A stretch of DNA of 60,033 nucleotides from positions 1-60,033 of IMG/VR virus record IMGVR_UViG_3300037484_000683; one strand, written 5' to 3'. This document shows positions 2,890 to 43,792 of this stretch, piece after piece. Within the stretch, counting starts at the first letter, position 1. Each line of letters begins with the position of its first letter. The stretch is from a virus. Taxonomy: Duplodnaviria > Caudoviricetes. The translations under genes and the position numbers were made by a program. Under the pieces are notes generated by a model, which did no database searches, was not told the origin of the DNA, and saw nothing but the letters and a program-made list of their open reading frames with translations.

Positions 2890-4572
2890 TCATCCCACAA
2901 AGACTCCTTGCTTAAATAATCTATTTGGAGCTACACACAAACAAAATCCATCACCATCATCAGGAGAGCGGCTAAACTTGTCCTTGAACTTCTCTTTTGA
3001 GACAAGTTGCTTTAAGTCCAGTCGGGATTGTCCGTTACTTGTTTTGATGACATACCCATATTGCCGTTCACACAAGTCCGTCTCAAGATTAGGAGACGGT
3101 GATAAAAGCCTGAGTACCTTTAATGCCTGCCCGGCGTGGTAATACATCTCAGTTACACTATCGGCAAACTTGTCGTTTTCCAGGGCGGTTCCATTATTAT
3201 GGACTTCAAAAACCTTAAAAAGATCAAACCAGCTTTGCAGGTCGGCATCCCGGCGCAAGTTGTCAACGCAAGTTGAATGGTAGCCCCCGCCGGCGTCAAC
3301 TCTGACCCATACCCGTTTGACACCCTTATCTCTCAACTTCTGGCAAGCCTTTTTGACGGCCAGGTAATAAGCAAAGCCATCTTGCTTGGCTATCTCGGTT
3401 TCTTTCCAAACCATGCCGGCGTGCCGGATATAGATCGTGCCTTTGTCGTTTCCATAGCGGGCCGCATCAACTCCTAGCCACGCCTCCTCTGGATTATCCC
3501 CATCATACGGGGGATTGCTAATAGCTGCCTCGTATCGCCCTGGTGGGCAGAATGTGTCATCGGTTCCTTTAGACGAAGCAATACCCAGGACGCGCCAGAG
3601 GGTTTCGAGCGTGGGCCGGTAAATGGCACCGGGTTGCCAGGGTAGTTCAAAGGTATAATCATCCGCATTGTGTTCGTTGACTACCTCGCAGTTTTCAAGC
3701 ATCCCGGCAACGTATTCACGTCTAACCGAGCCGGGGATTATCTCTTTATCCTCTAAAACATTGGGATGCTCCAAGCAACTAATCCGAAAGGATTTGACGT
3801 TTTCGCGCCGCCTGATTTTGTGCGCTTTACAGGTGGTGGTGCGAGGGTTTCGAAGGATCAAAACGATAACGATACCACCGGAGGCCATACTTTCTACCGC
3901 CTCCCAAATGAAACCGGGTATACCTTCGGCTTCATCTAAAACAAACATCAGGTATTTACCATGCTGCCCTTGCGCCCGTTCGGTTCCTGTGCCTTTGGCG
4001 TTGTTTGTGGCCTTACCCTTTACGAAATGATTGCCCTTATACTTGATACGCGGCTCTAAAAGCACCTCGCCGGGCAGGTTTTTACCATCTCTATCGGTGC
4101 GAATTTCTTTGAATAGCAAGTCATTGATCTGGTCATCACTTGGGGCAAAGCAGTAGATAATTGAGGGAGCAAAGCAATCAAAGAAGTGAGAAACAATACC
4201 GGCTGCCAGTTTGGTTTTGCCAACATTGTGACCGGCGTCAACCGATAACCAATTTTGAATAATTTGCCCCGGACGCCAGTATTCGAGATCATCAAGAGTG
4301 ATGTTACCTTGCTCAAAATCGTAACGCTCATGCTGCTGGCGGAGGGCTAAAATGTAAGCATCAAGTATCTCAGATTGCTTATGCCAGGGGGTCCAGCCCA
4401 AAAACTGTTGAATATAGCCGGGGTCAAAGCGGTAGGGGGTAAAGCGTTCATCAACCTGCTCTACCTCGCTCACCACCTCCGCCATAAACGCATCGGCCTG
4501 CGCTGAGGGCAATGATAAAAACCAGCGGGCTAAAGCGGGGTCAACCTGCGAAATGACATCACTCCGTAACAT
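2890..4572 (-). CDS. terL: Terminase large subunit
   Basis: Walker A AGHNVGKT, Walker B FVLDEAEG, nuclease motifs LGVDAARYGND and SPDDGD. Confidence 0.95.
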   Translation of the reverse strand: MLRSDVISQVDPALARWFLSLPSAQADAFMAEVVSEVEQVDERFTPYRFDPGYIQQFLGWTPWHKQSEILDAYILALRQQHERYDFEQGNITLDDLEYWRPGQIIQNWLSVDAGHNVGKTKLAAGIVSHFFDCFAPSIIYCFAPSDDQINDLLFKEIRTDRDGKNLPGEVLLEPRIKYKGNHFVKGKATNNAKGTGTERAQGQHGKYLMFVLDEAEGIPGFIWEAVESMASGGIVIVLILRNPRTTTCKAHKIRRRENVKSFRISCLEHPNVLEDKEIIPGSVRREYVAGMLENCEVVNEHNADDYTFELPWQPGAIYRPTLETLWRVLGIASSKGTDDTFCPPGRYEAAISNPPYDGDNPEEAWLGVDAARYGNDKGTIYIRHAGMVWKETEIAKQDGFAYYLAVKKACQKLRDKGVKRVWVRVDAGGGYHSTCVDNLRRDADLQSWFDLFKVFEVHNNGTALENDKFADSVTEMYYHAGQALKVLRLLSPSPNLETDLCERQYGYVIKTSNGQSRLDLKQLVSKEKFKDKFSRSPDDGDGFCLCVAPNRLFKQGVFVG

Positions 4573-5880: not shown

Positions 5881-7448
5881 AGTATCTCATCTCTAATTAC
5901 CTGAGCCACCGCCGCCATCATCACCGGAGGCACAGCCCGCCCCAATCGCTCCCATTGCTGACTGTAGGTTCCTGTTAGTTGAAAGTCATCAGGAAAGGCA
6001 CAGATACGCTTAAGTTCGGCAATGGTGAATTTTCGCTTTTCGGTCAGTCCGGCCTTGTAGACAAGGCCGGACTGACCTCTGCCGTGTGTCATTATCGTAG
6101 GAACAACATCGTTAGGCCCAAATTCTCGCTCCGCCCCTGTTACAGCATTCCAACCGCTTTCAGGCTCAACTACCCAATGAGTCCCTATGCTATCGCTTAG
6201 AACAGTTGGCGCGGGTTGGTCGGTAATATCACCATCATTGCCAAAAGCCCCGCGCTTATCTCGATAAGCGCGGGTTTCAACTTCAAATTGTCCTGACCCG
6301 CCGCCGGCTATAATAGTCGGTGCGAGCGCGGCGAGATTGTCAATCTCGCCGCGCTGTGAAGAGTGACCATTTTTGCCACCCTGTTTTATTTGCGCCTCAA
6401 CTAGCGCAGGCGGGAAACGTCCGTTTCCCGCCTGCGCTCCTGTTCCTATTGTGCCGCTTGGGTGTTGCCCGGCGTCTTGCCAGCCGCCACCGCCAAAACC
6501 GCCATTGTCTCCCTGCCTGACAATCCAGGGAATAGCCTCTCTGACACTATACCGATATGTTAACGGCTTCGGGTAAACCGGCTCTAAGCCCAAATCATTT
6601 CGCACCCCGATAAAGATAATCCGCTGCCTCATCTGTGGGACGCCTAACCACTGGGCGTCAAGTAGTTTAGCTTTGACGTTGTAACCACAATCTTTTAGCT
6701 CCTGTAGGATTAGCTTAAAGTATCCTTTTGCTGTTCCCTTGACAAGCCCGCTGACATTTTCGGCTACAAAGACTTTAGGCTGTAACCCATTTAGGATTCG
6801 GGCGTATTCAAAGAACAGATCATCAGTGCGCTGTTTGGTATCGCTATAGTTTTTGACTTTACCCCAACCGGCCTCACGCTTGCCCGCCGTTGAGAACGAA
6901 GCGCACGGCGGGGAGCCGTCCATTAGATCAAGTTCACCAGCCTTTAATCCGATTGCTTCTAATATTTCCCCTGGCTCGACCGCGCGAATATCACGGGTAT
7001 CTAAAATTGATCCGGGGTGGTTAAGCCGGTAAACCTCCTGGGCTGCCGGGATAAACTCGGAAGCCCATAGGACTTTGAAGCCGGCCATGCGATAGCCCAA
7101 ACAGCTACCGCCACAGCCTGAAAATGTACTTATGGCAGTAAAGCCATTCCAGGGTAGGGCGGCTATATCGGTCATTAGAGGGACTTGGTAAGGGGGTTTA
7201 TTTTCTACTCGCTGCTTTGTCATTTTGCCATCATTTTCTATGTAATACCTTACCGACCTATTGGCCTGCACCGTTGGAAACGGCTTGTCAGTCACATCTA
7301 CAAATAAGTGACCGCTGCCCCCCCCGCGTAACCTTAGACCATTGGCATCTTCAACAAAGATGCGCTGATTATTTCGGCTGGCCGGCCCATTCGTATCCAC
7401 ATTTTGGGCAACAGTACGCGGTTTCAATATCTTCACCATATTCTCCAA
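5865..7448 (-). CDS. C5 cytosine DNA methyltransferase fold, predicted carboxymethyltransferase
   Basis: FSGCGG, GSPPC, ENV and QMRQR motifs; motif X reads GRAV instead of GNAV; start position uncertain. Confidence 0.9.
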   Translation of the reverse strand: MENMVKILKPRTVAQNVDTNGPASRNNQRIFVEDANGLRLRGGGSGHLFVDVTDKPFPTVQANRSVRYYIENDGKMTKQRVENKPPYQVPLMTDIAALPWNGFTAISTFSGCGGSCLGYRMAGFKVLWASEFIPAAQEVYRLNHPGSILDTRDIRAVEPGEILEAIGLKAGELDLMDGSPPCASFSTAGKREAGWGKVKNYSDTKQRTDDLFFEYARILNGLQPKVFVAENVSGLVKGTAKGYFKLILQELKDCGYNVKAKLLDAQWLGVPQMRQRIIFIGVRNDLGLEPVYPKPLTYRYSVREAIPWIVRQGDNGGFGGGGWQDAGQHPSGTIGTGAQAGNGRFPPALVEAQIKQGGKNGHSSQRGEIDNLAALAPTIIAGGGSGQFEVETRAYRDKRGAFGNDGDITDQPAPTVLSDSIGTHWVVEPESGWNAVTGAEREFGPNDVVPTIMTHGRGQSGLVYKAGLTEKRKFTIAELKRICAFPDDFQLTGTYSQQWERLGRAVPPVMMAAVAQVIRDEILCKLK

Positions 7449-7917
7449 AGTCCTCCGGCGACTCTACTTGCCGATCAAGCAACCCATTAGCCGCTCGCAA
7501 CCGCAGCGACTCCAACATCCCGGCCAGCCCCGGCCTATCCGCTGTCATGGCGCGGGTGCGTTCAAGCAGCAGTGCCAACTTTTCGGGGATAGGCTGGGCT
7601 TGCTCGGTGATGGCATCGTGAATTTGCAGGGCTAGTAATTCCTCATCAGGCGTCAAGTCGTAATAGTCAACGGGGATTTGTAACGCCGGGTCTTTAACTA
7701 GGGCGCGGGTTACTCGCAAATGACCATCAAATATACGGTTCGTGGATATGTTTACCTTAACGCTGCCAACCCAGCCCAGCAGATCAAGGCTATCGTCAAG
7801 TGATTCGGCTTGCGCCTCTGGATGGCCCCGCCAATTCGCCTCGTTGAACTTATGGGCTAATTCCTCCGCTGTCTCATAGCCGATTTTAACGCGCCGATCT
7901 TCCCAGATGTCATTCAC
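7369..7917 (-). CDS. ParB-like N-terminal domain protein with C-terminal Zn ribbon
   Basis: NWRGHP, IFDGHLR, CPKCGYEW; typical neighbour of phage methyltransferases. Confidence 0.75.
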   Translation of the reverse strand: MNDIWEDRRVKIGYETAEELAHKFNEANWRGHPEAQAESLDDSLDLLGWVGSVKVNISTNRIFDGHLRVTRALVKDPALQIPVDYYDLTPDEELLALQIHDAITEQAQPIPEKLALLLERTRAMTADRPGLAGMLESLRLRAANGLLDRQVESPEDFGEYGEDIETAYCCPKCGYEWAGQPK

Positions 7918-34843: not shown

Positions 34844-35317
34844 TTAAGACCTTTCATACGTCGCATTGATAGCAATTCTATCCCCATTAGCCAGCGCGAA
34901 GTTTGGCGTAACTCCGATAGCATTGGCGTTTCCGCTGGCTACGATTTGAAAATCAGCCGCACCCACTGCCGCCAAAACCCCATTATAAAATGTACCGGCG
35001 CTTAAATCTCGCACTTGCCCATTACCAATAACGACATCAATAGAGCCAGTGTCCACCGGGGCAATGGCTGCCGGGATGCCCCCGATACTAATAGCATTCG
35101 CCGCCGTGCCTGCCCCGGTAACGGCCAACCGTGCCCGCAAATGCACAGTATTGGCAATGGTTATATACCGAGCGTAAACCGTTGTAAATGTCACTGCCCC
35201 CGATTGGGTTAGTGTCGGCGTCCAAGTCACCCATAGCCCCACCTCCGGCTTGGTCAGCTCGTCTATCTGCTGCTGTAGCCGTGTAACCTGCTGGATTAGC
35301 TCATCTAAGTTTTTCAT
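34844..35317 (-). CDS. Tail fibre/tip-associated protein
   Basis: N-terminal coiled coil, WVTWTPTLT...ARY..I.NTVH beta-rich domain. Confidence 0.7.
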   Translation of the reverse strand: MKNLDELIQQVTRLQQQIDELTKPEVGLWVTWTPTLTQSGAVTFTTVYARYITIANTVHLRARLAVTGAGTAANAISIGGIPAAIAPVDTGSIDVVIGNGQVRDLSAGTFYNGVLAAVGAADFQIVASGNANAIGVTPNFALANGDRIAINATYERS

Positions 35318-36450
35318 CCAATGACCGCCTCGTAATCCAGCCGGGCCGAAATATCCTCTTTGCCGGCGTCGCCCCCGTCTTTTGAGATGACAACCGCTCG
35401 CACAATGCTATCAAATTCACGATTGCGGTAACGGGCTTTGACCTTATAGCCAATGTCCCAATCCCGGCCAAAACGTGTTCCCTGTGTATCCATGGGCACA
35501 GCGGAGAAACGTACTTGAGGCCGACCCGATTCGAGTAAACTTCTGGCCCTGGCAATGACTCCGTTATCGGTTGCTTGATCTCTGGCATCCGCTTCGGCCT
35601 CGCAACGCGCCCAAATAGAGGCACTATAGCGGGTACTGTCATAAACCTGCTGTACATTGCGATCCGCTTCCTCTCCCTGACCAGTGCCATAGATATAATT
35701 TTCTTCATCCTCGTAATCGTATTCGAGGCTGGCATTTCTGAGATTGCCTTTATCCTTGTCAAATGTTACCCGGTCGGTAACGTCCTGCCCTGGCTGGCCG
35801 GTAAACGTTTGAAATTGAAACGTGATGCTATTTGAAGTGACCACGTTGGGCACAATATCAAAAAATACCTCGTTACCGGCCTCACGGGATGCCTTAGCCA
35901 GTCCAGCTATAACCCCCTGGCCGGAAGCGGTTAATAATTTCTTGAAGGGGAATGAGTCGGAAATAGTCGGGCCGGCGCTCAAATCAGCGGCGATGCTCAA
36001 ATTAGACCAGACCCTTGTGCCGGCGGTCGGGGTAGGAGCCACCCCATCGGCAATTGCCTGGGTGACAATCTCTTTCATCATATCATCAGCAAAATCCGTT
36101 TTGCTGGCCTGAGCGCTGGCGGCAAAGGCGGCTACAATACGTCGCCTCAATAGGTCGTTGGTATCTAACCCCCCGACCGTCAACACCTCATCACTGCCCT
36201 GCATCTCGAATTTCCACTTGCGCACAAAGTAGGCTCGCCACAAACCCAAGCGCCCGCCGGTGGGTTGCCGCCACACTTGCAGCATTCTATCCGGGGCAGT
36301 CAGCAGGCTGTCATCAAACGAGGCCGGCATTTGCAGGTTAAATTTGCCTATACCGTTGACCACCCGCCCGCAGGTAATCGCCACGAAATTGTCAAGCGCA
36401 GCCAGTCTAACGCCTCGGTCATCGGTTAGCCAGAGTTCATAAAAGGCCAT
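35314..36450 (-). CDS. Siphovirus tail-tip hub protein (ReqiPepy6 Gp37-like)
   Basis: RVVNGIGKF, YGTGQGEEADR, FGRDWDIGYKV; position after the distal tail gene. Confidence 0.75.
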   Translation of the reverse strand: MAFYELWLTDDRGVRLAALDNFVAITCGRVVNGIGKFNLQMPASFDDSLLTAPDRMLQVWRQPTGGRLGLWRAYFVRKWKFEMQGSDEVLTVGGLDTNDLLRRRIVAAFAASAQASKTDFADDMMKEIVTQAIADGVAPTPTAGTRVWSNLSIAADLSAGPTISDSFPFKKLLTASGQGVIAGLAKASREAGNEVFFDIVPNVVTSNSITFQFQTFTGQPGQDVTDRVTFDKDKGNLRNASLEYDYEDEENYIYGTGQGEEADRNVQQVYDSTRYSASIWARCEAEADARDQATDNGVIARARSLLESGRPQVRFSAVPMDTQGTRFGRDWDIGYKVKARYRNREFDSIVRAVVISKDGGDAGKEDISARLDYEAVIG

Positions 36451-36479
36451 TTGACTTATCCATACATTGGGTATATAAT
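36451..36479 (+). promoter_or_regulatory. Promoter of the RAMP/array cassette (leaderless first gene)
   Basis: TTGACT-17 nt-TATAAT; ATG lies 7 nt after the -10 box. Confidence 0.85.
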
Positions 36480-36485
36480 GTCTAT

Positions 36486-36623
36486 ATGATTAAAATAAGT
36501 TTTTATATCACCAAAAAACAAAAGAAGGCTCTTGAGGACTTAAACGAATTAAGTTTGTCAGAGCATATCAGGCGGGCCATAGATGAATATTTGGCCCGTC
36601 TCAGAAAAGAAAGGAAAGAATAG
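36486..36623 (+). CDS. Ribbon-helix-helix (CopG-like) regulator, 45 aa
   Basis: Manual ORF MIKISFYITKKQKKALEDLNELSLSEHIRRAIDEYLARLRKERKE; missed by the track. Confidence 0.85.
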   Translation: MIKISFYITKKQKKALEDLNELSLSEHIRRAIDEYLARLRKERKE

Positions 36624-36625
36624 TT

Positions 36626-37207
36626 ATGTACACAATTCTCGTTTCCGTTGAAGGCATCGCCCCGTTGATGCAGCACCGTTACCCGCTGCCCGACTTTGCC
36701 GATTTGAGCAAGGGCGGCAAAAAGAAAACGGGTGAGCAGGATTACAGCCAGGAGTGGCGGGAATATCTTTACGTCTCGCCCGATGGTGACATCTACCAGC
36801 CTGCCACCCATTTTGATGGGGCGATGGTCAAGGCCGCCGCCGGTTACAAAATCCAGGGCGCAAGGGGCAAGACCTATAAAGACCTTTTCAAAGGTAATGT
36901 TTTTGTCAGTCCTGATGCTATCTATCATGGTGTTAAAGCTCCTGAAAATCTTGACGCTGATGCTGATAAGCCACTTTACCTTGATGTTAGACCCGTCGTT
37001 GTCCAGCGGGCGCGGGTGGTGCGAATCCGGCCCTGCTTTGCTCCTGGCTGGAAACTCAGTTTTGAGATAACCGTCCTTGATGACCAAGTACCACATAACG
37101 TAGTTAATGAGGTTCTTTCCCTTGCCGGTCGTACCGTTGGCGTTGGCGACTTTCGCCCGCGCTTTGGCCGGTTTATGGTCACCCGGTTTGAGGTTGCCAA
37201 GAATTAA
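36626..37207 (+). CDS. Small solo RAMP/Cas7-like RNA-binding protein
   Basis: First strand VSVEGIAPL, IYQPATHFDGAM helix motif, WKLSFEI strand, C-terminal Gly-rich loop AGRTVGVGDFRPRFGRF; directly followed by repeat arrays. Confidence 0.75.
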   Translation: MYTILVSVEGIAPLMQHRYPLPDFADLSKGGKKKTGEQDYSQEWREYLYVSPDGDIYQPATHFDGAMVKAAAGYKIQGARGKTYKDLFKGNVFVSPDAIYHGVKAPENLDADADKPLYLDVRPVVVQRARVVRIRPCFAPGWKLSFEITVLDDQVPHNVVNEVLSLAGRTVGVGDFRPRFGRFMVTRFEVAKN

Positions 37208-37209
37208 CC

Positions 37210-37278
37210 TTGTGGTGAGGAGTGGCCTGGTCTGGTATGGTACGGTCGGGTGCGGTTTGGTTTGGTGGGGTAAGGTTT
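37210..37278 (+). ncRNA. Putative guide RNA unit 1
   Basis: NN = GA GT CT CT AT AC CG GC TT TT GG AA TT. Confidence 0.65.
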
Positions 37279-37282
37279 CTTT

Positions 37283-37391
37283 TTGTGGTATGGAGGGCTA
37301 TGGCGTGGTGGGGGTCGGTGGGGTAATGTTCGGTACGGCCTGGGATGGTTGGGCGTGGCGAGACAAGGCGAGGTACGATATGGTGAGGTTA
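37283..37391 (+). ncRNA. Putative guide RNA unit 2
   Basis: NN = AT GG AT GT GG TC GG AA TC AC CT AT TG GT GA AA GA AC AT GA TA. Confidence 0.7.
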
Positions 37392-37395
37392 CAAT

Positions 37396-37479
37396 TTGTG
37401 GTAGGGGACGGTCGGGTCGGGTGCGGCAAGGTAAGGCCAGGCAGGGCGGGGCGAGGTAAGATAAGGTGAGGTATGGAAT
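37396..37479 (+). ncRNA. Putative guide RNA unit 3
   Basis: NN = AG AC CG CG GC AA AA CA AG GG GA AA AA GA AT AT. Confidence 0.65.
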
Positions 37480-37484
37480 CCATT

Positions 37485-37568
37485 TTGTGGTATGGATTGG
37501 TTAGGCTAGGTGATGTCAGGCGCGGTAAGGTAAGGTCAGGTCAGGTGGGGATTGGTATGGTGTGGCTA
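37485..37568 (+). ncRNA. Putative guide RNA unit 4
   Basis: NN = AT TT TA TA GA CA GC AA AA CA CA GG TT AT GT TA. Confidence 0.65.
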
Positions 37569-37587
37569 TTCAGTTAGGGGTAAATCA

Positions 37588-37851
37588 GTGTCAAGATATT
37601 TTCAAATAGATGAACTCCCAGGATTAAGATTTTTATGGTTTTCCCGTCTCTCCCTTGAGACGTGGCGACCCTTGAAACAGTTTATCTATGAACGCGATAG
37701 AGGGATTTGCAGCTACTGCAAAACTCAATTCCCCTATGAACAGACTCATTGCCATCACGCTTTAGAACTTTCCGAAGGCGGTACAAATCATCCAAGTAAC
37801 CTCAAAACTCTTTGTCATAACTGCCATAAAATTAGACATCCTTTTATGTAA
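37588..37851 (+). CDS. HNH endonuclease (87 aa)
   Basis: RDRGICSYC, HCHH, GGTNHPSNLKTLCHNCH; GTG start after AGGGG. Confidence 0.92.
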   Translation: MSRYFQIDELPGLRFLWFSRLSLETWRPLKQFIYERDRGICSYCKTQFPYEQTHCHHALELSEGGTNHPSNLKTLCHNCHKIRHPFM

Positions 37852-37853
37852 CC

Positions 37854-37978
37854 TTGTGGTAAGGGCGGGGCGGGGTACGGCACGGCGCGGCGTGGCGTGG
37901 CGAGGAACGGTCTGGCAGGGCAAGGTGAGGAACGGCACGGCGGGGCAAGGTGAGGCCTGGCAAGGTATGGATAGGGCT
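37854..37978 (+). ncRNA. Putative guide RNA unit 5
   Basis: After a 6-nt first unit GGTAAG, NN = GG GG AC AC GC GT GT GA AC CT AG AA GA AC AC GG AA GA CT AA AT TA CT. Confidence 0.75.
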
Positions 37979-38001
37979 AGAAATTCTATCCCTAATTTTT
38001 T
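37972..38001 (+). terminator. Terminator closing the cassette
   Basis: TAGGG-C-TAGA/TCTA-T-CCCTA imperfect stem followed by ATTTTTT. Confidence 0.6.
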
Positions 38002-40552
38002 AATCCTGACTTTTGAACTGTTCCTTCCATAACATCCATCCCGTAATCGTTGGACTACCGGAGGTTGCCACAAAGCTGCTAATAGTATTAGCAGCGGGTA
38101 GCAAGCTCCATGTCCCAAAATCCGAATTAGCTAAAATCGCATCTGGTCTAGGCCCAAAGAAATTAGATATTATTGATTTTTCGGTAGGGGTTAGGTCAAT
38201 CGTCAAACGCTCACCACTCAATAAGCTATAATTGAATAATAATTCTCGCCCGCTGGTTTCGTTCTTTAATGTCTCAATAATGCCCGTAGTGCCACCGCTG
38301 CGCTCGTAGATGATTTTGGGGAAGGCCGGGGCGTTGCCCTCGTTGGTTGCCGTGATCTTGCCGGCGAAGTTGCCTGTGCCGGTGGTGTCAAATCCGAGCC
38401 ATAAATTGTATTTTTGAGGTACGATAGAATCAACATACTTACTAGCTAAAATAGCTTGCGGAGTAGCCGAGCCTGGTAAATTTATATCTAAGTGTGCCCA
38501 GGCGTAACCATTCCAACGAGCTATTCTATCTGCCAGTGTGATACCCCCTGAGCTAGTAAATGCACCCGAAACGTAAAGGATACCATCATTGCCATAACTT
38601 AAAGCCTGTCCGGTATTATTTATACCACTACCCAACGCGATAAAGCCTGTTCCATCCCAAACGGCTATTCTACTAGCACTTACACCTCCCGCCGTTGTAA
38701 AGGCCCCGGTAACAAAAAGTAATCCATTAGGGGCTATGGTTAAAGCAAATCCTTGTGAGTTAAGTCCAGAGCCTAATGCCGTAAAGGCACCACTAGCCCA
38801 TTTTGCTATACTATTGACTGTTACCCCCCCGGCTGTTGAAAAATCCCCCGTTACATAGATAGCGCCGTCTATTCCTGTTGTTAAGCCTCGGCCTATATCA
38901 TTTAAGCCCGTTGACATAGCACTAAAGGCCGTACCGCTCCAGGAGGCTATCCGATTTGCGGCCACACCTCCAATAGTAGTAAATGACCCTGTAGCGTAAA
39001 GCGTGCCATCATGACCAAAAGTTAGGGAATTTACATCGTTATTTGCCCCTGTGCTTAGTGCGTTCCATGCACTGCCATCCCATCGGGCAATTCTAACCGT
39101 GTTGGCTACCCCGCCAGCTAGTGCAAATTCTCCCCCAATATAAACCGACCCATCTGGGCCTATAACAATACATGTTATAATCCCATTTGTGCCCGTACCC
39201 ATCGCTGAATAAGTAGCCGTTTGTTTGTTGTATCTAACGATATAATCAGCGTTGGCAATATTATCAAAGTTGAGGAAGTTACCTGCGAAATAGACATAAG
39301 TTGCATCTTCGGCAATCCCCCGAATTATCGTGTAAGTACCCGCCGCATTAGGCGGCCCCAATGCCGACCACTGCCCTGTTGATCGTAGTCGCGCTGCTAC
39401 TATCCTAAACGTCGCACTGTCATTCGTATCAAGCAGTGCCGCCGATTCGCCTATTTCAGTCCAATAAGGAGCCGGTGAGAAAAACCGCACCGCCACCCGT
39501 TCCCAGGCGCAAGGCTCCGAGGCTTGTATGTCTCCCTCTAGCCCCCCGTCGTAATGGGCCGCAATCTGCTTATGGATCGTTGCACCCTGATAGCGCAATC
39601 TGACCGGCTGCACCCCGTTCTCATCTTCGGGGTAGGTATCCGGCGATAGAGCATTAAGTAGCACCTGTTTTTTACTGTGGAAATCACTTTGACTTGTGCC
39701 GGTGATGACGCCGGTCAAGGTAAAGACCCGGCTGTCAATTTTGAGGCTGTTTAGCTCACCCCCCGGCAAAGCGGCATATTTATCTACGCCCAAATCCTGG
39801 GGAGCCGTGCCCACGCCCGACATACCCCCTATTTTTAGGTTATAGTCATCTTCTAAATCTTCTACCTTCCCCCCGGCTCGACTGGCCGCACTGCGCTGGC
39901 TGGTCGCTGCGTTCTCTGGCCCAAGCCATTCGCAACCTTCCTGAGTACCATCACAGTAGGTAGTCCAATATTCCTTCGCCTCCACCTGAATCCCGTCAAG
40001 GTAGAAGTCACCAGAGCCAGCGCCGTTTTGGTGTACTTCCAGTAGTACCGAGGCATTGGCCTGTGCTGCTGGGAATTGCAAACCGTACAGTGCCCAATTG
40101 GAATCTATTTGTTCCAGCAGGGTGGGAGCCGTAAAGGTTGCGCCGTTAAGTGACCAATCCCAGGCCGCGGGCAATGTACCACGCACGCGCATGGTAACGT
40201 AGTGAATGGCATTGGTTAAAGCCGATAAAGTAAATTCAATGCCCTCATTATCGGCATTGGTCTCCACCCGATAGGAATAGAGGCCATAGTGCTGATAGGT
40301 GGTAGACCGGGTAACGGTGGTGCCAGCTTCGGCGGCAAAGTTGCCGGTTAGTTCAGCACTAGGATTCATCACATAATTGATCGTGGCTTCCGGTGTTATG
40401 AGTTTCCAATCAGACATACCACCCCCGATATTGCAGGGATTCTCTGCTGACAGAATCGCAGGCAGCCAGACACAATACCCCTGACACTGTGCCCCAACAG
40501 GCAAGGCCGATAGCAGCCAAAGCAAGCAAACCGTTAAAAGTCGTTTCCACAT
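38000..40552 (-). CDS. Distal tail protein with carbohydrate-binding-like and beta-propeller insertions
   Basis: NYVMNPSAE...LDGIQVE module, repeated LY.GG.FT.AGG...IA.WDG blades, NEGNAPAFP; follows the tape measure; second start possible at 40417. Confidence 0.8.
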   Translation of the reverse strand: MWKRLLTVCLLWLLSALPVGAQCQGYCVWLPAILSAENPCNIGGGMSDWKLITPEATINYVMNPSAELTGNFAAEAGTTVTRSTTYQHYGLYSYRVETNADNEGIEFTLSALTNAIHYVTMRVRGTLPAAWDWSLNGATFTAPTLLEQIDSNWALYGLQFPAAQANASVLLEVHQNGAGSGDFYLDGIQVEAKEYWTTYCDGTQEGCEWLGPENAATSQRSAASRAGGKVEDLEDDYNLKIGGMSGVGTAPQDLGVDKYAALPGGELNSLKIDSRVFTLTGVITGTSQSDFHSKKQVLLNALSPDTYPEDENGVQPVRLRYQGATIHKQIAAHYDGGLEGDIQASEPCAWERVAVRFFSPAPYWTEIGESAALLDTNDSATFRIVAARLRSTGQWSALGPPNAAGTYTIIRGIAEDATYVYFAGNFLNFDNIANADYIVRYNKQTATYSAMGTGTNGIITCIVIGPDGSVYIGGEFALAGGVANTVRIARWDGSAWNALSTGANNDVNSLTFGHDGTLYATGSFTTIGGVAANRIASWSGTAFSAMSTGLNDIGRGLTTGIDGAIYVTGDFSTAGGVTVNSIAKWASGAFTALGSGLNSQGFALTIAPNGLLFVTGAFTTAGGVSASRIAVWDGTGFIALGSGINNTGQALSYGNDGILYVSGAFTSSGGITLADRIARWNGYAWAHLDINLPGSATPQAILASKYVDSIVPQKYNLWLGFDTTGTGNFAGKITATNEGNAPAFPKIIYERSGGTTGIIETLKNETSGRELLFNYSLLSGERLTIDLTPTEKSIISNFFGPRPDAILANSDFGTWSLLPAANTISSFVATSGSPTITGWMLWKEQFKSQD

Positions 40553-43500
40553 CTATGCTCCCAAAAACATCTGCATAACCCCGAAGTCATTTATCACGCT
40601 TGAGCTATCAGCCCGCGTGTTGACCGTCATACTGAAATAGTTATTCGTGGTGCGCCCCATCCCGGCAACGTCTTCAATGCTACGGCCCGCCGGCGCAACT
40701 AAAACCCGCTCGCCCGATTGCACCCGCAAGGGGAAGCTATCGTTAGGGAAGCCGGGGGGAACTTGAAAACCGAGCGGCCCCGTGCCAGAGGCAAAGCCCA
40801 GGCCCCCCGCCGCGCCCGATGCACTTCCGGCCCCCTTTGCCGCTTGCGCCGCCGCCTCTGCTGCCTCTTTCATTTTCTCAAATTCTTTTATGGCCGCCTT
40901 GATCGCCTGGATTAAATCATCCTCTATTTTATCAGCGGCTTTCTTGAAGGCATCCCCGGCCGATTTCATCCCCGATACAATAGCCGTTGTCAGGGCAACC
41001 GAGGCTGAATTTGCCGCCGCAATTATACCAATGAGGCTATTTACACTGCCGATAGTAGTTGTAATCTGGGCTACTATTTGAGCCGTTGAAGATGTCCAGG
41101 TTGCCACCAGTAAGGGTAGGTGGACTATATAAATGGTACTCATAGTCAGAATGAGCATCGTTAGCGGCCCAACTGTCAAGCCTGTAACTTGCTCCGTAAC
41201 GGTGGTGATAAACAGGGTAAAACTCGCACCTAACATTACTACCTGTAGAGTGGCGGTGGTAAAGAAGGTGGTAAAAGTCACGCCCAGCATTGTTACCAGG
41301 GCCGGGATAGTTTCAGTCAGGGTGGTGATAAGTACACTAAAATCTATACCGGTGCCCTCGCCCCCCCCGGATAAGGCTCCAAAAACAGCGCTTAAAACGG
41401 TAGTGATACCACTGGACAGCGTTTCAAAAACTGCCATAATCGGCGCAGTCAGGGTGGTAAACCAGGAAATGATACCTGTCACCATGTCAGGAATAATCGA
41501 ATGGCCTACCAAAGTATCAAAAAGACCTTGCCAAAAAGCGGTTATCGAAGCTACCAGCCCGCCAAAAAACCCAACGATAAAACCACCCATACCCAGGATA
41601 CTGGCCTGAATCGTGGTAACAATACCACTGATAAATGTAGCCATACCCGAAAATCCCGTTTGAGCCGCCAGAAGCGCCGCCGGAATATCGCCGGCAAAAA
41701 CCGCTGTCCAAAAATCCATCAGGCTGGTAACGGTAACAATAATGCCAGTAATAGCGGTTGATACGCCCATGACTAATTCGTCCCAAACACTAATGATTGT
41801 TCCTACCGCCCCCACAACCGCCCCCACTAACCCCACTACTATTGAAATAGCGACCAGAATAGCGGCTCCAATTCCGGCAAAAACCAAACCTGTAGCAGTC
41901 AGCAGAGCATTACCTACATCGGCCCAATTGATGCCAAGACTGGTAAATGTGGCTCCGATTTGTTCAATTGCTGGCCCGACAGAGGCCGTTATCCCCTGAA
42001 CAATGCCATTAAAAACGGCCTGTATGACCGTCCAGGCCGTTAGAACTGTCGCGGCAATAACCGGCCAGTTTGCCGTAAACCATTCGACCAGCCCGGCCAG
42101 AGCAGGCACCACAATATTGATTCCGGCCACAATCCCGCTGACCACCACTGAGAATCCAACCGCCAGCGCGTTTAAGATATCGCCGGTGGTGATGCTTTCC
42201 ATCTGTGTGCCAAACGCGGTAGCAAAATCAGTCACCAAAGCTGACACCTGGGCAAAGGTACTTTGTAGAATCCCAACCGTCTCATCGGTCAGCCCTAGCG
42301 CTCTAAGTAACCCGCCAGTATCGCCGGACCCGAAGAGACCCTCGCTACCAAAAGTCGCCAAAAGCGCTTTGGCCTGTTCGATCCAGCCGGAAACAATTGC
42401 CAGGGTATCCGGGCCAAACCCGAATTGGTAGAGAGCCATTCTGATGCCCTCGCCCCAATCCCGCCCAAAAGCGTTAAAAATGGCCCGCCCCTTTGACATC
42501 CCCTTAGCCAGCGTCTTTACCAAATCCTCGCCCATCGTTGCCATTGGGCCGCCCAAAACAAAATCACTCAGCACCCCGGCAATTGCCGCCACTGCCGGTG
42601 TTGCCGCGTCAACCAGAGGCCGCAAAAAGGTACGCGCCCCAATAACAAAAATATCTGAGAAAGTGGATTGCAATCCCTTAACTGATGTCGCCATTTCCCT
42701 GGCAGTTCCAGCAAAGGTGTTTTGAGAGAAGCGGGTAACGGCGGCAAAAAGCTCGTCAAATATTTCGGGCGAGTTCTCTGCTTGTGCGTTAAACTCCTCA
42801 ACCGACATTCCCATTTCAACGCCGATGACTTTAGCCAGGTCAATACCGAGCCGGCGCAACTGGCGCAGGTCAACCTCAGTTAGTTTGCCGATTCTCTTCA
42901 CCTGAAATAGCTGATCGGCGGCAAAACCCAGACTGTCAGAGGTGATGCCCACCGCCCCGGCGAGATCCAAAAAGGCCGGGACAAACTCTTTGGTTTGCTC
43001 AACGCCAAGCCCTGCGGCAATAGCGTATTTGGTGGTCATCTCAACGGTTTCGGTTTCGAAGGGGGAAACAACGGCCAACCGAGAGACAAAATCAAGCAGG
43101 TCTTTTGTCTCCCTGCTGGCAATTTTGAAGGCATCGGCCTGGTCCATTGTCTGTTGCCAGGCTGATTTTGTGGAGGTGGTGTACTCGGTTTCGGTAGTGG
43201 TCAGACCGGCTAACTCGCGCTCTGTAGCCTGAATTGACAAAGCTAGTTGATCGTGCTGTGCTTTGGCCTTGATGACATTTAAGCCATTTTCACCATAGGC
43301 AGCGGTCAGATCAATGATGCGCTGCTGCTGCTCCTGATAGGTTGCCCGTTGGGTCATCAATTTGGCGTTTAGTTCATCGGTCGCAATGGCAAGCTCTTCC
43401 TGACTCATCACCTGTTTCGTCACCGCCGCCGTTACCGTCTCGGTAGTCTGCTCATACATATTATTGGCGGTGAGTAGAGCTTTCAACGAGGTTTCAAGCT

Positions 43501-43753
43501 GTTGTGATGAGCCAACCGCTTCCAGGCCGGTAGAAACAAAACCGGTGATACCCTCAACGATTTTGCCAAAGATGTTGGCGGCAACGATACCCCCGGCAAT
43601 CGTCGCCATGTTGCCCAGCGCCCCGCCAAAACCGCCCAGCATGCCGGTAACACCCTTAGCGGCCCCCCCTAAGCCGCCCAGGGCTTTGGTGGTGGCATCT
43701 ATGGCGTTACCAGTGCCGGTTTGTTTTATGACAACTTCAACTACATTAGCCAT
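40553..43753 (-). CDS. Tape measure protein
   Basis: Over 1000 aa, Ala/Gly-rich amphipathic repeats, SPFE motif, VPPGFPND..SGERV; start at MANVVEV. Confidence 0.92.
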   Translation of the reverse strand: MANVVEVVIKQTGTGNAIDATTKALGGLGGAAKGVTGMLGGFGGALGNMATIAGGIVAANIFGKIVEGITGFVSTGLEAVGSSQQLETSLKALLTANNMYEQTTETVTAAVTKQVMSQEELAIATDELNAKLMTQRATYQEQQQRIIDLTAAYGENGLNVIKAKAQHDQLALSIQATERELAGLTTTETEYTTSTKSAWQQTMDQADAFKIASRETKDLLDFVSRLAVVSPFETETVEMTTKYAIAAGLGVEQTKEFVPAFLDLAGAVGITSDSLGFAADQLFQVKRIGKLTEVDLRQLRRLGIDLAKVIGVEMGMSVEEFNAQAENSPEIFDELFAAVTRFSQNTFAGTAREMATSVKGLQSTFSDIFVIGARTFLRPLVDAATPAVAAIAGVLSDFVLGGPMATMGEDLVKTLAKGMSKGRAIFNAFGRDWGEGIRMALYQFGFGPDTLAIVSGWIEQAKALLATFGSEGLFGSGDTGGLLRALGLTDETVGILQSTFAQVSALVTDFATAFGTQMESITTGDILNALAVGFSVVVSGIVAGINIVVPALAGLVEWFTANWPVIAATVLTAWTVIQAVFNGIVQGITASVGPAIEQIGATFTSLGINWADVGNALLTATGLVFAGIGAAILVAISIVVGLVGAVVGAVGTIISVWDELVMGVSTAITGIIVTVTSLMDFWTAVFAGDIPAALLAAQTGFSGMATFISGIVTTIQASILGMGGFIVGFFGGLVASITAFWQGLFDTLVGHSIIPDMVTGIISWFTTLTAPIMAVFETLSSGITTVLSAVFGALSGGGEGTGIDFSVLITTLTETIPALVTMLGVTFTTFFTTATLQVVMLGASFTLFITTVTEQVTGLTVGPLTMLILTMSTIYIVHLPLLVATWTSSTAQIVAQITTTIGSVNSLIGIIAAANSASVALTTAIVSGMKSAGDAFKKAADKIEDDLIQAIKAAIKEFEKMKEAAEAAAQAAKGAGSASGAAGGLGFASGTGPLGFQVPPGFPNDSFPLRVQSGERVLVAPAGRSIEDVAGMGRTTNNYFSMTVNTRADSSSVINDFGVMQMFLGA

Positions 43754-43792
43754 ATACGCTAAACTGAGATATAATATTTGCACGGAGAAAAC

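What the first reader, a model, noticed from the sequence alone, without database searches (positions are those of the whole stretch)
37854..38299. Array 5 decodes (NN plus one skipped base) to a homologue of the neighbouring tail gene
Seen: the NN series from 37864 is GG GG AC AC GC GT GT GA AC CT AG AA GA AC AC GG AA GA CT. Read as codon positions 1-2 this is G G T T A V V E/D T L R/S N/K E/D T T G K/N E/D L. The phage's own distal tail gene at 38296-38240 (minus) reads GGT GGC ACT ACG GGC ATT ATT GAG ACA TTA AAG AAC GAA ACC AGC GGG CGA GAA TTA = GGTTGIIETLKNETSGREL. Eleven of 19 dinucleotides and 29 of 38 bases match. The mismatches are conservative or synonymous (A/G, V/I, V/I, L/L, R/K, T/S, K/R, L/L), and the preceding AG also matches the preceding Ser codon. 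Inference: the guide specifies a gapped target NNx-NNx in which the skipped base is the wobble position, so synonymous changes would not allow escape. The true target would be the orthologous gene of a related phage, with self protected by the 9 mismatches. NN equals the sense strand, so pairing would be with template-strand DNA rather than mRNA.
Basis: partly seen in the sequence, partly recalled or inferred. Interest (0 to 1): 0.96.

Follow-up and report, generated by a model that had tools for sequence, protein, structure and literature searches.

The report
Phage VIPR guide array targeting sibling tail gene
The repeat array is a guide RNA of a recently described phage system (VIPR) that reads DNA two bases at a time while skipping every third base, and here it is aimed at the tail gene of closely related rival phages.

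Summary
The NN series of array 5 matches the phage's own Dit-like tail gene at 29 of 38 positions. The next best site in the genome scores 23, and 0 of 300 shuffles exceed 25. That phage has an empty site where this one carries a 1.55-kb cassette.

The kind is already in print. It is a VIPR system (bioRxiv 10.64898/2026.04.26.720920): a small RAMP protein (Vipr) plus vrRNAs of GGY/NN pentanucleotides that recognise DNA by a "1 nt skip rule" in which the skipped base is the codon wobble.

- The 193-aa gene upstream matches the solved SUSP1 Vipr (PDB 36pp, profile E 4e-25).
- Its model has a Cas7-like fold.
- All 8 loci found with its homologues carry such arrays.

So this is a new member of a known kind. 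The possibly new part is an HNH nuclease gene inside a phage-borne cassette whose last guide targets the neighbouring gene's allele in cassette-less siblings. That geometry resembles a homing element, but this reading is inferred, not shown.

The parts
36451..36479 (+). sigma-70-like promoter of the cassette (TTGACT-17-TATAAT)
   Evidence: 11 of 12 consensus matches, the only promoter-like site in 36300-38150. Function is inferred.
36486..36623 (+). 45-aa ribbon-helix-helix protein; likely regulator or DNA-binding accessory gene
   Evidence: Pfam RHH_1 E 2.9e-5, 24.3 bits against a cut-off of 20.5
36626..37207 (+). vipr: 193-aa RAMP (Cas7-like) protein that would polymerise on the GGY motifs
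   Evidence: phrog_4652, E 1e-22. Matches PDB 36pp 'SUSP1 Vipr protein': phmmer E 1e-9, family profile E 4.1e-25. AF2 model pLDDT 95.2. Top Foldseek hits are type VII Cas7, Cmr4 and Csm3, E 6e-8 to 1e-5.
37214..37278 (+). vrRNA array 1, 13 units GGYNN, leader CCTTGTGG
   Evidence: no target found
37287..37391 (+). vrRNA array 2, 21 units (17 start with GG); NN decodes to a Walker-A-like G-x-V-G-S-G-K-S-T-L
   Evidence: target searched and not found
37400..37479 (+). vrRNA array 3, 16 units
   Evidence: no target found
37489..37568 (+). vrRNA array 4, 16 units
   Evidence: no target found
37588..37851 (+). HNH endonuclease gene (accessory, vap-like). The ORF is open from 37552; GTG 37588 is the likely start.
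   Evidence: Pfam HNH E 2.1e-9. The start was chosen by alignment with the HNH genes of the G002, L001 and L003 cassettes. CxxC...HH...N...N...CxxCH is invariant in 5 of 5 sequences.
37859..37978 (+). vrRNA array 5 (the finding). The guide part is 37859-37958 (20 units); the last 4 units do not match the target.
37969..38001 (+). terminator-like hairpin plus T run closing the cassette; overlaps the last two units of array 5
38240..38299 (-). self near-target in the phage's own Dit-like gene (31/40 = 78% NN match)
   Evidence: rare residues at mismatch codons
38000..40552 (-). Dit-like distal tail protein gene (850 aa), convergent on array 5
   Evidence: It follows the tape-measure gene 40553-43783. 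Pfam SPP1_Dit C-terminal domain E 2e-4 (below cut-off); phrog_106 minor tail protein.
35314..36450 (-). Tal / gp37-like tail gene. In L009 it follows Dit after 3 nt, so 36451-37999 is an insertion.
   Evidence: Pfam Sipho_Gp37 E 8e-19; empty site in L009

Best explanation
The region 36451-38001 is a VIPR (Viral Interference Programmable Repeat) cassette inserted in the 3-nt spacer between the Dit and Tal tail genes. It appears to be one + strand operon: promoter, RHH gene, vipr, vrRNA arrays 1-4, HNH gene, vrRNA array 5, terminator.

How it would work, by the published mechanism, which was not tested here:
- Vipr protomers bind each GGY and polymerise along the RNA.
- They present each NN dinucleotide for pairing with one strand of double-stranded DNA.
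- One target base, the codon wobble, is flipped out per step.

Array 5 specifies about 57-60 bp in the conserved motif S-G-G-T-T-A-V-V-E-T-L-R-N-E-T-T-G-K-E-L of the Dit gene as it occurs in sibling phages. The carrier's own allele differs at 9 of 40 guide positions.

My inference for the outcome: in a cell shared with a sensitive sibling, the complex binds the rival's Dit gene and the co-encoded HNH nuclease cuts there, or the complex merely silences it. Either excludes the rival. Repair from the carrier genome would copy the cassette together with the resistant allele.

Shown here: the cassette's anatomy, the homology to Vipr, the NNx match and the empty site. Inferred: transcription and processing of the arrays, binding, cleavage and the ecological outcome.
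For: **Match and statistics**
- Self match is 29/38, against a next best of 23.
- 0 of 300 shuffles reach 26.
- L009 matches 37/38, or 39/40 with unit 0.
- Among 120 Dit homologues, the decoded pattern is met at 18/19 by 3 proteins and at 17/19 by 3 more. Self meets 13/19.

**Protein**
- PDB 36pp 'SUSP1 Vipr protein' is hit at E 4.1e-25 by the family profile and 1e-9 by the single sequence.
- The fold is Cas7-like.

**Association of protein and arrays**
- 8 of 8 IMG/VR loci with a homologue have GGNNN arrays directly downstream.
- Of 5 related virus records, the 2 with the protein have arrays and the 3 without have none.

**Further cases of the code**
- Second case: the array of Mu-like loci L004/L005/L007 scores a local 20 (24/28 over 14 units) on gemA of cassette-less L021/L023/L024. 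On its own gemA it scores 20-22 of 34.
- Third, weaker case: the G002 array's best hit is the orthologue of its neighbouring chaperone gene (32/48, local score 17, reached by 1 of 300 shuffles).

**Literature**
- GGY/NN vrRNAs, the 1-nt skip, the wobble logic and anti-phage targets are in 10.64898/2026.04.26.720920.
- The filament and gapped R-loop structure is in 10.64898/2026.04.26.720927.
Against: - No RNA data show that the arrays are transcribed or where they are cut.
- Arrays 1-3 are separated by only 8-9 nt and lack the roughly 40-nt structured 3' tail described for the SUSP1 clade.
- No target was found for arrays 1-4 or for most arrays of the related loci.
- No perfect 38/38 target exists in the collections scanned.
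- The published experiments show silencing, not cleavage. Nothing here shows that the HNH works with Vipr. It could be an independent homing endonuclease gene that travels with the cassette.
- The effect of 9 mismatches on binding is unknown. Self at 78% is only just under the 80% line used in the paper.
Confidence: 0.9

Rival explanations
1. Silencing only. The cassette is a VIPR that represses or blocks the rival's tail operon by binding alone, as shown for SUSP1. The HNH is a separate free-standing homing endonuclease with its own protein-encoded specificity that happens to sit in the same mobile cassette.
For: All published functional assays are repression assays. The Mu-like cassettes L004/L005/L007 have vipr plus arrays, no HNH was found, and they still match the neighbouring gene. 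HNH genes are common free-standing mobile genes in phages (30 PHROG HNH families hit).
Against: HNH sits inside the cassette, between vipr or the arrays and the last array, in 5 of 5 cassettes of this Vipr clade (window, G002, L003, and both cassettes of L001). The cassettes lie at four different genomic sites. The discovery paper lists HNH among Vap domains (fig. S21 legend). Silencing a diffusible structural protein would not by itself hurt a co-infecting rival that can use the carrier's Dit.
Confidence: 0.35
2. Self-regulation. Array 5 acts on the phage's own Dit gene (78% match) to tune tail-gene expression.
For: The best match within the genome is the adjacent gene. The same holds in L004 and G002.
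Against: Orthologues in cassette-less phages match far better than self: 98% against 78% and 24/28 against 21/28. The self allele carries rare residues exactly at the mismatch codons. The paper found no self hits at or above 80%.
Confidence: 0.04
3. Chance resemblance, or a structural repeat (G-quadruplex, protein-binding iterons, Rho site) that carries no sequence information in NN.
For: Most arrays have no identified target. GG every 5 nt could form two-layer G-quadruplexes (my knowledge, not tested).
Against: 0 of 300 shuffles come near the observed score. L009 matches 39/40. There is an independent second case in Mu-like phages. The protein is homologous to the solved Vipr.
Confidence: 0.01

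Closest known systems
VIPR systems (Vipr + vrRNA), type II of Escherichia phage SUSP1 and the P. fulva prophage; bioRxiv 10.64898/2026.04.26.720920, 10.64898/2026.04.26.720927, 10.64898/2026.10.15.759431
   Same: Homologous ~20-kDa RAMP protein (PDB 36pp). Tandem GGY/NN pentanucleotide arrays next to vipr. Target read as NNx with the skipped base at the wobble position. Targets lie in competing phages. No self hit at or above 80%.
   Different: - An HNH nuclease and an RHH protein are the accessory genes, rather than the DNA-binding vap1.
- Arrays have 13-23 units (9-16 reported for SUSP1 and P. fulva; up to 30 mentioned in the structure paper).
- Arrays 1-4 are back to back with 8-9-nt linkers, and no ~40-nt pseudoknot tail is seen.
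- The identified target is a structural tail gene of sibling phages that lies right next to the cassette's own insertion site. It is not a satellite gene or a lysis-lysogeny regulator.
Nuclease-associated VIPR types (III-V in the discovery paper)
   Same: A predicted nuclease as vap. HNH is named among Vap domains in the fig. S21 legend. Their vrRNAs hit IMG/VR viruses.
   Different: The paper describes types III and V as enriched in defence islands of cellular genomes and acting as host immunity. Here the cassette sits inside a phage tail module. I could not assign a type: the classification tables are in supplements that were closed.
Class 1 CRISPR Cas7 backbone filaments (Csm3, Cmr4, type VII Cas7)
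   Same: Same fold (Foldseek E 6e-8 to 1e-5) and a G-rich loop GVGDFRPRFGRF. A protein filament presents a guide RNA in segments, with periodic flipped bases.
   Different: 5-nt guide period with only 2 pairing bases, and a 3-nt target period. There is no repeat-spacer array, no cas1/cas2 and no other cas genes in the cassette.
Free-standing HNH homing endonuclease genes of phages (e.g. T4 mobE; only listing and abstract seen)
   Same: A small HNH gene lies in an intergenic insertion that is present or absent among relatives. The recognition site lies in the neighbouring conserved gene of the empty allele, and the carrier allele is variant.
   Different: Here the site is specified by an RNA array plus a RAMP protein, not, as far as can be told, by the nuclease itself. 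Cleavage and homing are not shown.

Membership tests
VIPR system | Vipr protein: a small RAMP homologous to characterised Vipr | tested here: met
   PDB 36pp 'SUSP1 Vipr protein': profile E 4.1e-25 over positions 1-174; single sequence E 1e-9, residues 8-186. Cas7-like fold, pLDDT 95.
VIPR system | Tandem pentanucleotide GGY/NN arrays next to vipr | tested here: met
   Five arrays with 89 units. 83 start with GG and 77 have Y at position 3 (my count). All 8 of 8 homologous loci also have arrays.
VIPR system | Natural target matching NN by the 1-nt skip rule at >=80%, with skips on the wobble position | tested here: met
   Array 5: L009 37/38 and 39/40, in frame with the skip at codon position 3. 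Only gap 1 gives an outlier. Arrays 1-4: no target found.
VIPR system | No self target at >=80% NN | tested here: met
   Best self hit is 29/38 = 76%, or 31/40 = 78%.
VIPR system | Accessory (vap) gene with a DNA-related function | tested here: met
   HNH (E 2.1e-9) and RHH (E 2.9e-5) in the same operon.
VIPR system | vrRNAs are expressed as ~100-nt RNAs, bind Vipr, and have a conserved structured 3' tail | not testable with these tools
   No RNA run holds the locus. Sequence shows conserved TTGTGG leaders and a terminator hairpin after array 5, but no long tail after arrays 1-3.
Homing endonuclease element | Presence/absence polymorphism at a precise site among relatives | tested here: met
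   L009 has Dit stop, AAA, then Tal start. The window has 1,549 bp in that spacer.
Homing endonuclease element | Recognition site in the empty allele close to the insertion point; carrier allele not recognised | tested here: inconclusive
   The guide match lies 240-300 bp from the insertion point and scores 98% in the empty allele against 78% in the carrier. Whether 78% escapes recognition was not measured.
Homing endonuclease element | Site-specific cleavage and copying of the element into the cut allele | not testable with these tools
   No assay was possible. The word 'homing' occurs 0 times in the three VIPR preprints.
CRISPR-Cas | Repeat-spacer array with an adaptation module (cas1/cas2) | tested here: not met
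   Tandem-repeat and ORF scans show only 5-nt units and three small genes.

The most novel reading that the evidence does not exclude
HNH-bearing phage VIPR cassettes may be RNA-guided homing or drive elements. The last vrRNA of each cassette is aimed at the neighbouring gene's allele in cassette-less siblings. Vipr-vrRNA would mark that site, the HNH would cut it, and repair from the carrier would copy the cassette together with the linked resistant allele.

This would explain several observations:
- Cassettes of one Vipr clade sit at four different sites.
- The guide next to the flank matches that flank's orthologue. This is strong for Dit in the window and for gemA in the Mu-like phages (which have no HNH), and weak for the chaperone gene in G002.
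- In the Mu-like case the target gene is far more diverged (80%) than the flanking genes (97-98%) between carrier and empty-site phages.
Probability: 0.3. Interest if true: 0.8.

Novelty: new member of a known kind. Interest (0 to 1): 0.45.

Why it matters
The case gives an independent natural confirmation of the VIPR code in an uncultivated siphovirus. The guide matches its natural target at 39 of 40 positions, and the empty-site allele and the mismatched self allele can be set side by side. That pair of sequences is a ready-made substrate set for measuring how many NN mismatches protect self.

It also places a nuclease-linked VIPR inside a phage. The discovery paper associates nuclease types with host defence islands. 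The guide points at the allele next to its own insertion site, which raises the testable idea that VIPR can drive gene conversion between phages as well as silence rivals.

Tried and rejected
**Closed or empty tools**
- Rfam at gathering thresholds found no family.
- ARAGORN found no tRNA.

**Early ideas from the anatomy, dropped after the target evidence and the papers**
- A TRAP-like ring protein binding triplets.
- G-quadruplexes.
- A Rho-loading site on the complementary RNA.
- RHH iterons or a centromere.
- Translation of the arrays as pentapeptide repeats or by 5-nt steps. ORFs 37107-37469 and 37856-38032 run through the arrays.

**Does unit position 3 (Y) encode the wobble base?** My count from the outputs is 6 of 19 against L009. 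That is what composition alone would give, so I rejected it.

**Targets of arrays 1-4**
- Nothing above background in the phage's own genome (best local score 10-12).
- Nothing in five whole related virus records or the other loci (best 12-15).
- The best hits were inspected. The score of 15 for array 2 lies in a 49-codon open frame with no homologue in the window, so it is probably chance.
- A 10-unit NNx pattern from array 2 gave 0 hits in IMG/VR.
- The same pattern gave 34 hits in genome contigs. All are generic P-loop genes, and the best full-array score is 29/42, so there is no target.
- A Walker-A regex over all fetched DNA gave 4 unrelated hits.

**Exact-pattern scans for array 5**
- All 19 units in metagenome contigs: 0.
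- 12 units in metagenome contigs: 0.
- 12 units in IMG/VR: 1 hit, the L009 contig.

**Orthologues of the G002 chaperone gene.** Two IMG/VR scans returned only G002 itself and the L009 contig. The third case therefore stays weak.

**Complex prediction, Vipr with HNH:** no verdict.

**The look-up of sequencing runs:** no RNA holder listed; one run holds a 0.04 share.

**Not seen.** Supplements of the VIPR papers (type tables, target lists) were closed. They may already list HNH-type phage loci, or this clade.
Full report
**What is there.** The window is a whole 60,033-bp virus record. On the minus strand it carries a siphovirus tail module:
- a tape-measure gene, 40553-43783;
- an 850-aa Dit-like gene, 38000-40552;
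- a Tal/gp37-like gene, 35314-36450.

Between Dit and Tal, on the plus strand, lies a compact cassette:
- a promoter-like site, 36451-36479 (11 of 12 consensus positions);
- a 45-aa ribbon-helix-helix gene;
- a 193-aa gene of PHROG 4652, function unknown;
- four back-to-back arrays of 5-nt units GGYNN: 37214-37278, 37287-37391, 37400-37479 and 37489-37568;
- an HNH endonuclease gene (ORF from 37552, likely start GTG 37588);
- a fifth array, 37859-37978;
- a terminator-like hairpin, 37969-37991, with a T run.

Each array follows a TTGTGG leader. Of 89 units, 83 begin with GG and 77 have a pyrimidine third (my count).

**Checking the observation.** With the real series, no other place in the genome exceeds 23, on either strand, at gaps of 0 to 3. 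In 300 shuffles of the dinucleotides (gaps 0-2), the best fixed score was 25 and the best local score 18, against 29 and 20 observed. Only a gap of one base gives an outlier. Arrays 1-4 have no comparable match within the genome.

**Testing the prediction.** I fetched orthologues of the Dit C-terminus.

At the protein level, I read the array as codon positions 1-2, which gives the pattern G-G-T-T-A-V-V-[DE]-T-L-[SR]-[NK]-[DE]-T-T-G-[NK]-[DE]-L. Of 120 homologues, 3 meet this pattern at 18 of 19 positions and 3 more at 17. The phage's own protein meets 13.

At the DNA level, IMG/VR locus L009 matches 37 of 38. Adding the degenerate unit GTAAG in front gives 39 of 40, and the single mismatch is guide G opposite A. 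The figures below use the 40-position count:

| Locus | NN match |
|---|---|
| L009 | 98% |
| L010 | 85% |
| L013 | 82% |
| L011 | 80% |
| self | 78% |

In L009, Arg is AGA and Leu is CTN, as the array requires, so the agreement is at the nucleotide level and not only at the protein level. The wobble bases are unconstrained.

L009 is also the empty site. Its Dit stop is followed by AAA and then the Tal start, whereas the window has 1,549 bp in that spacer.

At three of the mismatch codons the carrier's own Dit has residues that are rare in the family:
- Gly in 1% of 119 homologues, where 87% have Ala;
- Ser in 4%, where 79% have Thr;
- Arg in 13%, where 61% have Lys.

**The partner protein.**
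- All 8 IMG/VR loci found with the 193-aa protein carry GGNNN arrays directly downstream. L001/L002 are duplicates, and L005/L007 share the same array.
- Of five related virus records, the two with the protein have arrays and the three without have none.
- The family is large: 2,577 representative clusters at E <= 0.001.
- A profile of 61 members hits PDB 36pp, 'SUSP1 Vipr protein', at E 4.1e-25. The single sequence hits it at 1e-9, and the alignment includes the C-terminal GVGD-RPRFGRF loop.
- The AlphaFold model (pLDDT 95.2) is closest to the Cas7-family subunits of type VII, III-B and III-A complexes.

**What is known.** A literature search found three 2026 bioRxiv preprints.
- Of 10.64898/2026.04.26.720920 I read the abstract, the Results, the Discussion, two Methods sections and search passages. 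It describes VIPR systems: a ~20-kDa ancestral RAMP, Vipr; vrRNAs of YNNGG repeats; recognition of double-stranded DNA by the NN bases with one skipped target base that generally falls on the wobble position; no PAM; natural targets in competing phages and satellites; no self hits at or above 80% NN; and seven types whose accessory genes include DNA binders, helicases and nucleases. An HNH domain is named in a supplementary figure legend.
- Of 10.64898/2026.04.26.720927 I saw the abstract, one section and passages. It shows the filament, the thumb that displaces GGY, the pocket for the skipped base and the R-loop triplex.
- Of 10.64898/2026.10.15.759431 I saw the abstract, one Methods section and passages. 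It shows competition between phage and satellite.

The finding is therefore a VIPR locus.

**What may go beyond the papers.** The word 'homing' does not occur in any of the three texts, and the discovery paper links nuclease types to host defence islands.

Here an HNH gene lies inside the cassette in every member of this Vipr clade that I looked at: the window, G002, L003 and both cassettes of L001. These cassettes sit at four different places: Dit|Tal, chaperone|tape measure, next to the portal gene, and upstream of the tape-measure gene.

The guide nearest the flank points at the flank gene in three cases:
- **Window.** Array 5 is convergent on Dit, and its target lies 240-300 bp inside that gene.
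- **G002.** The single array is convergent on the tail chaperone gene. Its best hit in about 600 kb is the orthologous site of the window's chaperone gene (32/48; local score 17, reached by 1 of 300 shuffles). Its own gene scores 28/48.
- **Mu-like phages L004/L005/L007.** These have vipr and arrays and no HNH was found. The array matches the adjacent gemA, and it matches better in the cassette-less L021/L023/L024 (24/28 over 14 units) than in self. L023 and L024 are empty sites. Between L005 and L024 the flanking genes are 97-98% identical, while gemA is only 80% identical.

Tight linkage of a guide with a resistant allele of its target is what a selfish killer-and-protector haplotype needs. 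With a nuclease it would amount to RNA-guided homing. This is an inference. I know of RNA-guided retention of IS200/605 elements by TnpB only from memory, not from any call.

**Limits.**
- There is no evidence of expression.
- No targets were found for arrays 1-4, although array 2 decodes to a Walker-A-like motif.
- No perfect target was found in the scanned collections.
- The complex prediction for Vipr with HNH gave no verdict.
- The VIPR type could not be assigned, because the supplements were closed.

**Verdict.** The kind is already described, so this is a new member of it. The homing-like arrangement is worth a bench test.

Noticed in passing
window 37287-37391: Array 2's NN series decodes to [IM]-G-[IM]-V-G-S-G-[NK]-S-T-L, a Walker-A (P-loop) motif. 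Its target is probably an ATPase gene of some other element. None was found in the phage, its relatives, IMG/VR (exact 10 units) or genome contigs (34 generic hits, best 29/42).
   Followed up: partly
L001 3104-4223 and 6001-7197 (same in L002): Two VIPR cassettes lie in tandem in one phage. Each has vipr, array(s) and HNH. The two Vipr proteins are only about 32-36% identical to each other's clade.
   Followed up: partly
L028 (G002) 4394-4468, + strand: A 15-unit GGYNN array lies on the strand opposite to the G002 cassette, between it and the tape-measure gene. It may be a divergent or solo vrRNA. No target was found (best local score 14).
   Followed up: no
L005 5909-6849 versus L023/L024 2492-2501: The Mu-like VIPR cassette (vipr plus arrays, no nuclease found) is inserted between a 66-aa gene and gemA. 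gemA is 80% identical between carrier and empty-site phages, while MuB and the downstream 105-aa gene are 97-98% identical. This is a mosaic block around the target gene.
   Followed up: partly
window 37107-37469 and 37856-38032, + strand: ORFs of 120 and 58 codons run through the arrays. They are by-products of G-rich repeats and would be false gene calls.
   Followed up: no
L008 6519-6718: A 40-unit stretch of GGNNN units follows a Vipr homologue; it is probably several vrRNAs without clear separators. An HNH ORF lies at 7219-7551, but it sits just before what looks like the packaging module, so its link to VIPR is unclear.
   Followed up: no
window 38000-40552: The Dit-like protein is unusually long (850 aa), with beta-propeller repeats (DUF5122, Rax2-like) between the N-terminal part and the SPP1_Dit-like C-terminal domain.
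   Followed up: no
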